Positions 42,901-45,900 of a stretch of 64,000 nt of DNA are shown one piece after another; the first letter of the stretch is position 1; each line of letters starts with the position of its first letter. A program made the position numbers. The DNA lies in contig NW_021836159.1 in NCBI RefSeq assembly GCF_006345805.1, positions 6,064 to 70,063 of the forward strand, given 5' to 3'. This stretch comes from Octopus sinensis (Eukaryota).

Positions 42901-45900
42901 AATATATCTATAAGCATGCAAAGAAGTCGGGGATTAATGGTGTCCAACATAGATATGAGAGACACATTCCTTACTGAGTGATATCTGGATCTCACATAAC
43001 CTAATTTCTACCAACAAATAAAGCTTATGTTCGCAATTGCATTGAATACCACATTAATTTCGGCATTGGGATTACATGGTACAAAAAGATATTTAGAAAA
43101 GTAAAACAAAAATCATTCAAACGAAGTGAAATATATTATCATTGTCCGGCAGTCGTTTACTTAATACATCTTTATTTCTATTATCAAATGATCTTATCTT
43201 AATTAAATTTCTATTTGAGAATAATTTTTGACGTTTTGTAGATGACCTGTGGGCTAAATTAGTAATTGTAAATCAATCATACTAATCGGATAGTGATTTT
43301 GACTCAATAACGATAATACTGTATTAAACAGGTCTGCTATAATTATAGTTAGCTATAAGACGTCTTAAGTGTGCTAGCATTGCCACCGAGTTGTAATTTA
43401 GAACAGTTGGAAAAAAACGCACAACATTATCTTATTTACAAAACTGAATCTTTTTTGTGTTTGTATTTAAGTAAGGCATTTATGGATTTAGTGAATGTTG
43501 TTTTATTAAATAGTAAATCAAGTAGATTTATTCTGTTAATTTGTTTTTGTTTTGAATCTAGTTCTTTCAGCATGTTTGTCAGCACCTTGTATGAACGGTG
43601 GTCAATGTTCGAATGCAGGTACATCATTTGTGTGCCAATGTCTTCCTAACTTTTACGGTCCTCGTTGTCAAATTGAAGATAAATGTCGCTCAGTGACTTG
43701 CCTAAATGGTGGCCGATGTACTACAACTAACTTTGTTGCGAAATGTAATTGCCCATCTGGATTTACTGGTCCACGATGTGAAAATCCCATTAATTCCTGT
43801 CAATCTTCACCGTGTCAAAATGGTGGAACATGCTATCCAAATGGAGTTCAATTCACTTGTCGTTGCCCTGTTGGACTCAGAGGACTACGATGTGAACAAC
43901 CATTTTGCTCAGCAAATATCTGTCAAAATGGTGGAACATGTCAGCTTGTAAACAATCAAGTTTCTTGCATATGTCTCAATGGATTTCAAGGTAATAGATG
44001 CCAGGTGCCGATTCAGTGTTATCCACCATGTCAAAATGGAGGAATTTGTAACACTAACACAAGAATGTGCAACTGCCCTCATGGATTCGTTGGCCCAGAT
44101 TGTTCAAGAAGAGATGATTGCGCGTTAAATCCAAATATCTGTCAAAATGGTGGAACATGTCAGCTTGTAAACAATCAAGTTTCTTGCATATGTCTCAATG
44201 GATTTCAAGGTAATAGATGCCAGGTGCCGATTCAGTGTTATCCACCATGTCAAAATGGAGGAATTTGTAACACTAACACAAGAATGTGCAACTGCCCTCA
44301 TGGATTCGTTGGTCCAGATTGTTCAAGGAGAGATGATTGCGCGTTAAATCCAAATATCTGTCAAAATGGTGGAACATGTCAGCTTGTAAACAATCAAGTT
44401 TCTTGCATATGTCTCAATGGATTTCAAGGTAATAGATGCCAGGTGCCGATTCAGTGTTATCCACCATGTCAAAATGGAGGAATTTGTAACACTAACACAA
44501 GAATGTGCAACTGCCCTCATGGATTCGTTGGTCCAGATTGTTCAAGAAGAGATGATTGCGCGTTAAATCCAAATATCTGTCAAAATGGTGGAACATGTCA
44601 GCTTGTAAACAATCAAGTTTCTTGCATATGTCTCAATGGATTTCAAGGTAATAGATGCCAGGTGCCGATTCAGTGTTATCCACCATGTCAAAATGGAGGA
44701 ATTTGTAATACTAACACAAGAATGTGCAACTGCCGTCATGGATTCGTTGGTCCAGATTGTTCAAGAAGAGATGATTGCGCGTTAAATCCAAATATCTGTC
44801 AAAATGGTGGAACATGTCAGCTTGTAAACAATCAAGTTTCTTGCATATGTCTCAATGGATTTCAAGGTGATAGATGCCAGGTGCCGATTCAGTGTTATCC
44901 ACCATGTCAAAATGGAGGAATTTGTAACACTAACACAAGAATGTGCAACTGCCGTCATGGATTCGTTGGTCCAGATTGTTCAAGAAGAGATGATTGCGCG
45001 TTAAATCCAAATATCTGTCAAAATGGTGGAAGATGTCAGCTGGTAAACGATCAAATCACTTGCGCATGTATAAATGGCTTTTATGGAGATAGGTGCCAGT
45101 TCCCAAGTCTGTGCTCTCCAAAATGTCAAAATGGAGGAACTTGTAATGTAAACACAAGAATATGCGACTGTCCTCCCGGATTTGGTGGTCGAGATTGTTC
45201 GAGAAGAGATCCTTGTGCTTCAAAGCCATGTTTGAATAATGGCCAATGTATTGTACAAAATGATTTTGACTACATTTGTGCGTGTCGCCAAGGATGGAGT
45301 GGTAAAAACTGTGGGAGTACCACTACGCCTTGTTCGAATAACCCCTGTTTGAACGGTGGACAGTGCTATCCTATGGGCAACAGCTTTACTTGTTATTGTC
45401 CACAAGGCTGGACTGGACAGAGATGCGGCAGTCAAACCAATCCATGCACTCCAAATCCTTGCCAAAACAACGGCCAGTGTAGCATGTTTGGACCAAATGG
45501 ATTCACTTGCACTTGTGCTAGTGGATGGTCTGGCAAGTTTTGTAACGAAAGTGGTTCAATCTATTGTCCGTCTCGCCATTGTTCTAACGGAGGAACCTGC
45601 ATCCACACTGCCAACCAATTACGTTGCCGATGTCCATTTGGCTTTAAAGGAATCTACTGTGAAGGTAAGCATAGCTGTTTAATGTTACATAATTTGTACT
45701 TGTGAACCGGATCCATAATTCGATTTTGATTTCTAGCGACAATCTTTTCACTTTACTTAGGTATGCGTTCAAAAATTGTATGGACATTAATTAGAATATA
45801 CTGTTTCCTATTTCTATCTTTTCCAGAAATTAATATAAAACCAAATTACTATTACACATAATTATAATACAGTTAATAATTTTAAAACTTTTGACAATTT

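What the first reader, a model, noticed from the sequence alone, without database searches (positions are those of the whole stretch)
43921..45234. Intra-exonic accordion: a 219-bp two-EGF module amplified six times, giving 21 EGFs in B versus 8 in A
Five units are about 99% identical. Diagnostic variants (CCT to CGT in units 4-5, AAT to GAT in unit 5) suggest stepwise recent unequal crossing-over; the sixth unit is older and diverged. The whole array sits in one 2.1-kb exon, so copy number can change without touching splice sites. This sets the distance between the C2-DSL head and the chitin anchor, like a tunable spacer (inference).
Basis: partly seen in the sequence, partly recalled or inferred. 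Interest (0 to 1): 0.7.

Follow-up and report, generated by a model that had tools for sequence, protein, structure and literature searches.

The report
Two-EGF repeat array inside one exon
One of two neighbouring copies of a gene for a secreted, chitin-binding, Delta-like protein has recently multiplied a two-EGF-domain block inside a single exon, and the other copy has deleted that block; this is an ordinary kind of coding repeat, though a very clean example.

Summary
Window 43915-45228 holds exactly six head-to-tail copies of a 219-bp, 73-codon unit. Each unit encodes two EGF domains. The array lies inside one 2,094-bp exon (43571-45664) of paralog B. Units 1-5 differ at only 5 sites; unit 6 differs at 45 of 219.

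B also has a DSL exon and a last CBM14 (peritrophin-A) exon with a stop and no membrane segment. The "C2" head could not be confirmed.

- Every internal junction carries the same scar. It is a C1-C2 loop built from the right-edge EGF plus the left-edge EGF and is 2 codons longer than either. The array was therefore founded by one out-of-register exchange and then grew by homologous exchange.
- A is not the ancestral short form. Its third EGF is a three-part chimera (B EGF3 / B unit-6 b-EGF / B EGF16). A therefore lost the array through two in-frame deletions of 437 and 38 codons.

The region has expanded in one copy and contracted in the other. The "tunable spacer" function is plausible but untested. 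The mechanism is well known from dumpy, the FLO adhesins and the tenascins. Copy number in individuals and in other species could not be checked.

The parts
43915..45228 (+). The array: exactly six tandem 219-bp (73-codon) units. Each unit encodes an 'a' EGF (C3-C4 loop of 8 residues) and a shorter 'b' EGF (C1-C2 loop of 3, C3-C4 loop of 6).
   Evidence: TRF; unit comparison; per-EGF table; junction alignment.
43915..45009 (+). Young units 1-5 (43915-44133, 44134-44352, 44353-44571, 44572-44790, 44791-45009). They hold 5 variable sites in all. Unit 3 carries no private change.
45010..45228 (+). Old unit 6. It differs from unit 3 at 45 of 219 nt and matches it at 50 of 73 residues. Against unit 3, dS is 0.49 (bootstrap 0.26-0.87) and dN/dS is 0.38. 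Its b-EGF is the counterpart of the middle of A's chimeric EGF.
43571..45664 (+). Single exon of paralog B: 2,094 nt, 698 codons, 19 EGFs, phase 1 at both ends.
   Evidence: Open frame; Pfam EGF 2.2e-87; splice contexts; Cys count.
44104..44125 (+). Junction scar, the first of five identical internal junctions (period 219). The C1-C2 loop CALNP|NIC is built from the right-edge EGF16-type half plus the left-edge EGF4-type half. It is 6 nt longer than either edge loop.
   Evidence: Alignment A1; loop spacings 6 versus 4.
39418..39562 (+). DSL-domain exon of B.
   Evidence: Pfam DSL 5.1e-12, 46.3 bits against a cut-off of 24.2; PDB Delta-like 1 4xbm 3.3e-5, then Serrate, DLL4 and Jagged-1; splice sites.
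40891..41001 (+). Single-EGF exon of B, phase 1-1.
   Evidence: Pfam EGF 1.7e-9; splice sites.
41896..42015 (+). Single EGF exon of B of the calcium-binding type (begins IDEC), phase 1-1.
   Evidence: Pfam EGF 2.1e-8; EGF_CA 2e-5, 25.2 bits, just under its cut-off of 27; splice sites.
48242..48417 (+). Last coding exon of B: a CBM14 / peritrophin-A chitin-binding domain followed by TAA at 48415-48417. There is no membrane-spanning stretch.
   Evidence: Pfam CBM_14 7.6e-14, 52 bits against a cut-off of 22.1; sequence.
38127..38294 (+). Exon just upstream of the DSL exon (56 codons, ends ...LTYQIR). Its identity as part of a C2/MNNL module is unconfirmed.
   Evidence: Conserved ag/gt in A and B; dN/dS 0.29 between A and B; no Pfam, PDB or Atlas support.
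8305..8970 (+). Homologous exon of paralog A: 666 nt, 222 codons, 6 EGFs.
8532..8621 (+). A's chimeric third EGF. A 8511-8555 matches B EGF3 (43777-43821). A 8556-8603 matches the B unit-6 b-EGF (45133-45180). A from 8604 onward matches the C-terminal part of B EGF16 (from 45295). The switch points lie in shared TGTCAAAATGG and GGA.
   Evidence: Sliding-window best matches; codon-by-codon table; arithmetic 437 + 38 + 1 = 476 codons.
720..19649 (+). Block A of a tandem segmental duplication. Its partner is block B at 34621-54816. Each block holds the gene plus a downstream LINE fragment.
   Evidence: blastn; Pfam RVT_1 and Exo_endo_phos.
42303..42750 (+). Intron tract that is 99-100% identical to A 6996-7446. 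A second such tract is B 35513-35810 = A 1614-1911. Against an 82-88% background these look like gene-conversion tracts between A and B.
   Evidence: Windowed identity.

Best explanation
This is a genuine in-frame coding macrosatellite in paralog B of a tandemly duplicated gene. From the DSL exon onward the gene encodes DSL, 21 EGFs, CBM14 and a stop. It has no membrane anchor, so it is most likely a secreted, chitin-bound protein.

Shown:
1. Six 219-bp units, each of two EGFs, lie inside one 2,094-bp phase-1/phase-1 exon.
2. All five internal junctions carry the same hybrid C1-C2 loop. It combines the right-edge EGF16-type half with the left-edge EGF4-type half and is 2 codons longer than either parent. 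The array was therefore founded by one out-of-register exchange between the C1-C2 loops of two different EGFs.
3. The 5' unit then went from one to five copies, which carry only 5 substitutions among them.
4. Paralog A lost the whole array and one more EGF through two frame-preserving and Cys-register-preserving deletions. The breakpoints lie in short shared motifs (TGTCAAAATGG and GGA) and left a three-part chimeric EGF.

Inferred:
- The later steps happened by homologous unequal exchange between sister chromatids or homologues, or by slippage.
- The founding duplication is about as old as, or older than, the A/B gene duplication.
- The functional effect of each step is to lengthen or shorten the EGF stalk between the DSL end and the chitin-binding end. 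From recall, each EGF adds roughly 2-3 nm. Each step also adds or removes one POFUT1-type O-fucose consensus site per young unit.

Whether stalk length is under selection is unknown.
For: Array and exon:
- Period 219, score 2281.
- Unit identities and the five variable sites.
- In-frame units and a 6-Cys pattern kept in 19 of 19 EGFs.
- Open frame of 721 codons in DNA with 33-39% G+C over 42-46 kb.
- ag/gt sites are conserved in A and B for 6 of 6 exon pairs examined.

Founding event:
- In the junction alignment, the interior junction equals the right-edge half plus the left-edge half, with 6 extra nt.

Contraction in A:
- A 8547-8603 matches the unit-6 b-EGF at 53 of 57 positions. It matches the b-EGFs of units 1-5 at only 43-44 of 57.
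- A switches codon by codon from the EGF3 type to the 6b type to the EGF16 type.
- The size difference between the two exons is explained exactly: 437 + 38 + 1 = 476 codons.

Timing and selection:
- dS between unit 6 and unit 3 is 0.49 (0.26-0.87).
- dS between A and B is 0.31 (0.18-0.49) in the 3' part of the big exon, and 0.26 summed over five other exons.
- dN/dS is 0.38-0.58, so both copies are constrained.

Domains and comparators:
- DSL, EGF and CBM14 are identified.
- The POFUT1 consensus C2XXXX[S/T]C3 (passages of PMC11990869) is met by the a-EGF of units 1-5 and by the b-EGF of unit 6.
- Known behaviour of coding minisatellites in surface proteins comes from passages of PMC3899988 and PMC2930355.
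Against: - There is no population, long-read or transcript evidence. The copy number in the assembly could be wrong, and the exons were never shown to be spliced together.
- The dS intervals for the unit-6 split and the A/B split overlap, so 'at least 2 units in the ancestor' is probable but not shown.
- The 5' part of the big exon shows 9 non-synonymous against 2 synonymous A/B differences, dN/dS 1.3. That fits relaxed constraint as well as adaptation.
- Two of the five private changes (unit 5 position 81, unit 4 position 140) equal the unit-6 state. The chance of this is 0.04-0.14. It hints at conversion from unit 6, which would blur a simple stepwise history.
- The AlphaFold2 model of two units was poor (pLDDT 62.8), so nothing here measures stalk length or stiffness.
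- No C2/MNNL module, signal peptide or start codon was established.
Confidence: 0.75

Rival explanations
1. One reading: A, with 8 EGFs, keeps the ancestral short state, and B alone expanded by amplifying one two-EGF module six times.
For: B holds the array and A does not. The five young units are clearly a B-specific gain.
Against: A's third EGF switches from B-EGF3-type to unit-6b-type to EGF16-type sequence within 90 nt. Three B segments have no counterpart in A: the C-terminal half of EGF3, the a-EGF of unit 6 and the N-terminal half of EGF16. They are far too diverged from anything in A to be duplicates made after the split. The b-type C-terminus (GF.G.DCSRRD) is shared by all six units but not by A.
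Confidence: 0.05
2. Concerted evolution: the five similar units are not young. They are old copies kept alike by continuing gene conversion or unequal exchange, so the 1% divergence does not date the expansion.
For: Gene conversion is active at this locus. A and B share 99-100% identical tracts against an 82-88% background. Two private variants, in the units nearest unit 6, carry the unit-6 base. The PIGSFEAST repeats of dumpy are reported to evolve this way (passages of PMC2930355).
Against: Unit 6 lies directly beside the array and shares the junction scar, yet it escaped homogenisation (79% identity). The five variants are few and mostly private, as a recent burst would give.
Confidence: 0.2
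3. Assembly artefact: the number of near-identical 219-bp units (1.3 kb in all) was inflated or collapsed by the assembler.
For: Units that are 99% identical are hard to assemble from short reads. No read data are available here.
Against: Four of the five young units carry their own private or shared variants in a consistent order, and unit 3 is the variant-free form. There are no Ns, the frame is unbroken and all junctions are identical. The existence of the array, unit 6 and the scar does not depend on the exact count.
Confidence: 0.1
4. Neutral by-product: B, or the whole gene pair, is drifting or decaying, and the change in copy number has no functional consequence.
For: dN/dS is 1.3 in the 5' part of the big exon, 0.92 in the calcium-binding-type EGF exon and 0.71 in the CBM14 exon. 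There is no expression evidence. A candidate start codon and donor in B are not conserved in A.
Against: 698 codons are open in AT-rich DNA. All 114 of 114 cysteines are in register. Summed dN/dS is 0.50, and 0.38 between unit 6 and the young units. Splice sites are kept in both copies.
Confidence: 0.15

Closest known systems
Drosophila dumpy: the PIGSFEAST repeat exon of an EGF-rich apical matrix protein
   Same: Dumpy is a large extracellular protein built mostly of EGF modules that ties epidermis to the cuticle. It carries about 40 nearly identical tandem repeats in one large exon. [quoted passage not shown]
   Different: The dumpy repeat is a 102-aa non-EGF unit. Dumpy is anchored by a ZP domain and a transmembrane segment, not by CBM14, and has DPY modules and no DSL domain. 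None of those modules was seen in the exons scanned here.
Yeast FLO1/FLO11 and Candida ALS adhesins (coding minisatellites)
   Same: These have in-frame tandem units of about 100 nt in cell-surface proteins. Copy number varies through recombination or slippage, and repeat length scales with adhesion, so they are a documented 'tunable' repeat (passages of PMC3899988).
   Different: Their units are Ser/Thr-rich, glycosylated and low in complexity, not folded disulfide-bonded domains. They are fungal wall proteins unrelated in sequence.
Tenascins (EGF-like repeats on one exon; FN3 domain duplication in tenascin-W)
   Same: [quoted passage not shown] Family members and species differ in domain number through repeated duplication of one domain (passages of PMC1578592).
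   Different: The variable tenascin-W domains are FN3 domains, each on its own exon. Tenascins have heptad, FN3 and fibrinogen-related domains, which are absent here.
Canonical DSL Notch ligands (Delta, Serrate, Jagged; for example Delta-like 1, PDB 4xbm)
   Same: A DSL domain is followed by tandem EGFs. The DSL exon and the repeat units both find Delta-like 1 as their best solved relative, at 3.3e-5 and 8.8e-25.
   Different: There is no transmembrane segment or cytoplasmic tail, because the frame stops right after CBM14. No MNNL/C2 module was detected. The Delta/Jagged-type EGF models scored below their cut-offs. A C-terminal chitin-binding domain is not part of that family.
Peritrophin-A / CBM14 chitin-binding proteins
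   Same: The C-terminal 6-Cys CBM14 domain scores above the Pfam cut-off.
   Different: From recall, typical members are arrays of CBM14 domains, with or without mucin linkers. Here a single CBM14 caps a DSL-EGF stalk. No paper in the searched library holds 'DSL domain', 'chitin-binding' and 'EGF' together, or 'dsl', 'peritrophin', 'egf-like' and 'notch' together.

Membership tests
EGF-like domain array (Pfam PF00008 / hEGF) | Six cysteines with the C1-C6 spacing of EGF and a significant profile match | tested here: met
   Pfam EGF 2.2e-87 with 13 stretches. 114 Cys make 19 domains with spacings 3-6 / 5 / 6-9 / 1 / 8. PDB Delta-like 1 and Notch1 EGFs match at 8.8e-25 and 1.5e-22.
In-frame coding mini/macrosatellite evolving by unequal exchange | Head-to-tail units whose length is a multiple of 3, with near-identical copies | tested here: met
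   Period 219 = 73 codons, six units, five of them at least 98.6% identical.
In-frame coding mini/macrosatellite evolving by unequal exchange | Copy number differs between alleles, individuals or paralogs | tested here: inconclusive
   It differs between the two paralogs: six units in B, none in A after deletion. Variation between individuals cannot be tested with one assembly.
DSL (Delta/Serrate/LAG-2) Notch-ligand family | DSL domain | tested here: met
   Pfam DSL 46.3 bits against a cut-off of 24.2. The PDB hits align to the DSL residues of Delta-like 1, Serrate, DLL4 and Jagged-1.
DSL (Delta/Serrate/LAG-2) Notch-ligand family | N-terminal MNNL / C2 module before the DSL domain | tested here: inconclusive
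   The exon before the DSL exon gave no Pfam MNNL hit at E up to 1, no PDB hit at E up to 10 and no Atlas lead. The 5' exons were not resolved. From recall, its ending ...LTYQIR followed by SYCSQGYYG resembles the C2-DSL boundary of ligands.
DSL (Delta/Serrate/LAG-2) Notch-ligand family | Single-pass transmembrane segment and cytoplasmic tail (canonical ligands) | tested here: not met
   The CBM14 exon ends ...KCNIGQ followed by TAA at 48415-48417. A has the same layout. No hydrophobic stretch follows.
DSL (Delta/Serrate/LAG-2) Notch-ligand family | Atypical EGF1-2 (DOS-type) directly after the DSL domain | tested here: not met
   The first EGF after the DSL domain is an ordinary EGF. JAG1-like_EGF2 scored 13.3 bits and EGF_DL_JAG 17.5 bits, both below the cut-off of 27.
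CBM14 / peritrophin-A chitin-binding domain | Profile match above the curated cut-off, with the 6-Cys pattern | tested here: met
   Pfam CBM_14 7.6e-14, 52 bits against 22.1, covering profile positions 1-53 of 53. Chitin binding itself was not tested.
Dumpy-type apical matrix proteins | DPY modules, a ZP domain and a transmembrane anchor | tested here: not met
   None was reported by Pfam in the exons scanned. The protein ends after CBM14. It is an analogue, not a member.

The most novel reading that the evidence does not exclude
The gene pair encodes matrix-immobilised DSL ligands. The CBM14 end is fixed in a chitin matrix (cuticle, gut lining or similar) and the DSL end is presented to Notch-type receptors on nearby cells. 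The EGF array sets the reach of the ligand. Expansion in B and contraction in A would then have produced a long-reach and a short-reach form from one ancestor within a short evolutionary time, and copy number may still vary in the population. The chitin anchor, rather than endocytosis by a signalling cell, would supply the resistance needed to pull on the receptor. This last step rests on my recall of how Notch activation works. No call tested it.
Probability: 0.08. Interest if true: 0.65.

Novelty: new member of a known kind. Interest (0 to 1): 0.35.

Why it matters
This is a very legible case of how multi-domain extracellular proteins change domain number. The locus preserves four things together: the founding illegitimate junction, the recent homologous expansion, and, in the sister gene, two in-register deletions that fused three EGFs into one intact chimeric EGF. 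It shows that EGF arrays encoded in a single exon can grow and shrink while keeping the frame and the disulfide register.

It also warns that the shorter paralog is not necessarily the ancestral one. The DSL-EGF-CBM14 architecture was not found in the literature searched, and if it is expressed it would be worth a functional look. The mechanism itself, and the idea of a length-tunable repeat, are well established.

Tried and rejected
I then sent only stop-free open frames.
- Conservation between A and B could not be used to find exons. Introns are conserved too, because the duplication is recent.
- For the exon upstream of the DSL exon, Pfam gave only DUF1353 at E 0.039, below its cut-off. The PDB gave 0 hits at E up to 10. 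The best Atlas score was 0.82, which is no lead. The C2 reading therefore stays open.
- A candidate start codon (37425) and a 36-nt mini-exon (37611-37646) in B were dropped. In A the ATG is TTG and the donor GT is CT.
- The AlphaFold2 model of two units, made from a single sequence, had pLDDT 62.8 and pTM 0.28. That is too poor for a fold search or any length estimate, so I ran no fold search and no second fold.
- The Atlas search with the big exon returned only generic EGF, Notch, Slit and fibropellin clusters. It gave no information on relatives with the same array.
- Dating the founding duplication against the A/B split by dS was inconclusive because the intervals overlap.
- Carmon et al. 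2007 (PMC1893059) is not held. It is known to me only through the reference list and text of PMC2930355.

Unchecked:
- Genome contigs holds only bacteria and archaea and was not used.
- As a result, orthologues, further paralogs and unit counts in other species or individuals remain unchecked.
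Full report
OBSERVATION

Tandem Repeats Finder finds one array at 43913-45210, with period 219, 5.9 copies, 95% matches, no indels and score 2281. When the array is cut at period 219, units 1-5 differ from unit 2 at 0-3 of 219 positions. Unit 6 differs at 46, and the following 219 nt are unrelated. Among units 1-5 the ten pairwise differences are 1-3 nt, mean 2.2, which is 1.0%.

Only five sites vary (unit phase from 43913). Position 81 is A>G in unit 5 (N>D). Position 140 is C>T in unit 4 (synonymous). Position 166 is C>G in units 4 and 5 (P>R). 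Position 182 is T>C in unit 1 (synonymous). Position 197 is A>G in unit 2 (synonymous). Unit 3 has no private change. The window contains no N.

THE EXON AND THE GENE

The array lies in a 721-codon open frame. Pfam reads it as EGF at 2.2e-87. The exon is 43571-45664 (ttctttcag|CA ... GAAG|gtaagc), 2,094 nt, in phase 1 at both ends. The array is 344 nt and 436 nt from its two ends. The exon has 114 cysteines, which makes 19 EGFs. Each unit is an 'a' EGF plus a shorter 'b' EGF.

On the same strand, with matching intron phases and ag/gt sites conserved in both paralogs (6 of 6 exon pairs), lie the following exons:
- An exon of unknown type at 38127-38294.
- A DSL exon at 39418-39562. Pfam gives 46.3 bits against a cut-off of 24.2, and the best PDB hit is Delta-like 1 at 3.3e-5.
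- One EGF exon at 40891-41001.
- One calcium-binding-type EGF exon at 41896-42015.
- After the big exon, a CBM14 exon at 48242-48417 that ends in TAA. Pfam gives 52 bits against a cut-off of 22.1.

The upstream exon gave nothing in Pfam, the PDB or the Atlas. A candidate start codon and mini-exon in B are not conserved in A.

CONTEXT

A and B are the two copies of a tandem segmental duplication. Block A is about 720-19649 and block B about 34621-54816. Each block includes a LINE fragment downstream of the gene. Background identity between the blocks is 82-88%. Tracts of 99-100% identity (B 35513-35810 and 42303-42750) point to gene conversion between the copies.

Coding divergence between A and B gives dS 0.31 (0.18-0.49) in the 3' part of the big exon. 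Summed over five other exons dS is 0.26, with dN/dS 0.50. The 5' part of the big exon is nearly identical between the copies (dS 0.037) but has 9 replacement against 2 silent differences.

HOW THE ARRAY WAS FOUNDED

I aligned the left edge, the five internal junctions and the right edge. Each internal junction is the right-edge sequence (the start of EGF16...CASKP) joined to the left-edge sequence (EGF4...SANIC). The result is CALNP|NIC, a C1-C2 loop of 6 residues where both parent loops have 4.

The first duplication was therefore an exchange between the C1-C2 loops of two different EGFs, 2 codons out of register. The junction between units 5 and 6 carries the same scar, so unit 6 and the progenitor of units 1-5 are the two products of that event. 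All later junctions are identical to it, as homologous unequal exchange or slippage between existing units would give. The array is thus exactly 43915-45228, which is 6.0 units.

PARALOG A IS A CONTRACTION

In 24-nt windows, A's third EGF finds its best match first in B EGF3, then in the b-EGF of unit 6, then in the C-terminal part of EGF16. Codon by codon the switches fall inside shared TGTCAAAATGG and GGA. Over A 8547-8603 the match to the unit-6 b-EGF is 53 of 57 positions. To the b-EGFs of units 1-5 it is 43-44 of 57. Unit 6 itself matches units 1-5 at 46-47 of 57.

In B coordinates, A lacks 1,311 nt (437 codons) and 114 nt (38 codons). Together with a 1-codon indel, this equals the 476-codon difference between the two exons exactly. 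The B segments missing from A are too diverged from anything in A to be duplicates made after the split. These segments are the C-terminal half of EGF3, the a-EGF of unit 6 and the N-terminal half of EGF16.

Hence the ancestor had at least EGF3, one a/b unit and EGF16, which is at least 11 EGFs in all. A then lost at least 3 EGFs, and B gained at most 10.

Whether the ancestor already had two units is open. dS between unit 6 and unit 3 is 0.49 (0.26-0.87), against 0.26-0.31 for A/B. That makes the founding duplication probably as old as the gene duplication or older, but the intervals overlap.

RECENCY AND MECHANISM

The young units differ by 1%, which is about a tenth of the A/B silent divergence. 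The P>R change shared by neighbours 4 and 5 fits local stepwise duplication.

Two private variants, however, carry the unit-6 base: unit 5 at position 81 and unit 4 at position 140. These are the two units nearest unit 6. By chance this has a probability of 0.04-0.14. Short conversion from unit 6, or homogenisation of older copies, therefore cannot be excluded. Unequal crossing-over, sister-chromatid exchange and slippage cannot be told apart from one sequence.

FUNCTION (INFERRED)

The frame is open, all cysteines are in register, and dN/dS is 0.38 between the old and young units. The array is therefore most likely translated.

From the DSL exon onward the protein has no membrane segment and ends in a chitin-binding domain. 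Changing unit number changes the length of the EGF stalk between the two ends. From recall, not from a call, each EGF adds roughly 2-3 nm. Each young unit also adds one site fitting the POFUT1 consensus C2XXXX[S/T]C3 (passages of PMC11990869). An AlphaFold2 model of two units was too poor to use (pLDDT 62.8).

COMPARISON WITH WHAT IS KNOWN

In-frame tandem repeats that vary in number in surface and matrix proteins are well documented:
- The yeast FLO1 and FLO11 adhesins and the Candida ALS adhesins have repeat length that scales with adhesion (passages of PMC3899988).
[quoted passage not shown] Dumpy is an EGF-rich protein that links epidermis to cuticle (passages of PMC2930355).
- The tenascins encode all their EGF-like repeats on one exon and differ in domain number through duplication (passages of PMC1578592).

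The present case is a new member of that kind. It is not a canonical Notch ligand, because it has no transmembrane segment, no detected MNNL module and no DOS-type EGFs. Two full-text searches found no paper combining a DSL domain with a chitin-binding or peritrophin domain and EGFs (0 papers each). Those searches cover only the held library.

VERDICT

The main correction is that the locus shows expansion in B and contraction in A from an intermediate ancestor, and it preserves the founding junction. Interest is moderate to low: the example is clean and instructive, but the mechanism is ordinary. The assembly copy number, expression, polymorphism and relatives in other species remain unchecked.

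Noticed in passing
window 43988, 44207, 44426, 44645 (AAG|GTAA) and 44864 (AAG|GTGA): Each young unit carries a 5'-splice-donor-like motif at the same unit position (73), and unit 6 does not. Splicing between equivalent sites of two units would remove whole units in frame. No evidence that this happens.
   Followed up: partly
window 35513-35810 (= A 1614-1911) and 42303-42750 (= A 6996-7446): These non-coding tracts are 99-100% identical between the two paralogous blocks, against an 82-88% background. They are probably recent gene conversion between A and B. High identity (91-98%) continues from the second tract to the left edge of the array, so the array marks the 3' end of the high-identity region.
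   Followed up: partly
window 17325-20738 (-) and 52528-54779 (-): These are GC-rich (about 45-55%) LINE fragments with reverse-transcriptase and endonuclease domains, set in a genome of about 33% G+C. They sit at the same relative place downstream of A and of B and are about 90% identical, so the element was already there when the block duplicated. A MULE-transposase-like frame lies at 26033-26317 (-).
   Followed up: partly
window 37425-37646 compared with A 3253-3475: B has an ATG followed by a hydrophobic, signal-peptide-like frame (MESLIIIAFTF...) and a 36-nt ag/gt-flanked mini-exon. In A the ATG is TTG and the donor GT is CT, although the DNA is 97% identical. Either these are not exons or A has a damaged 5' end. 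The true 5' end of both genes is unresolved.
   Followed up: partly
window 43573-43821 compared with A 8307-8555: The first 83 codons of the big exon differ between A and B by 9 replacement and only 2 silent changes (dN/dS 1.3). The rest of the gene gives 0.3-0.9. This could be fast protein evolution after a recent conversion, or relaxed constraint.
   Followed up: no
window 32000-33800, and 15100-17000, 27000-31000, 51750-52300, 58100-58950: There are long impure microsatellite tracts (CA/TG, TATG and ATCT types). One 1.8-kb stretch has strong strand asymmetry (GC skew -0.57 at 32-34 kb). These tracts fill much of the space between the two gene copies.
   Followed up: no
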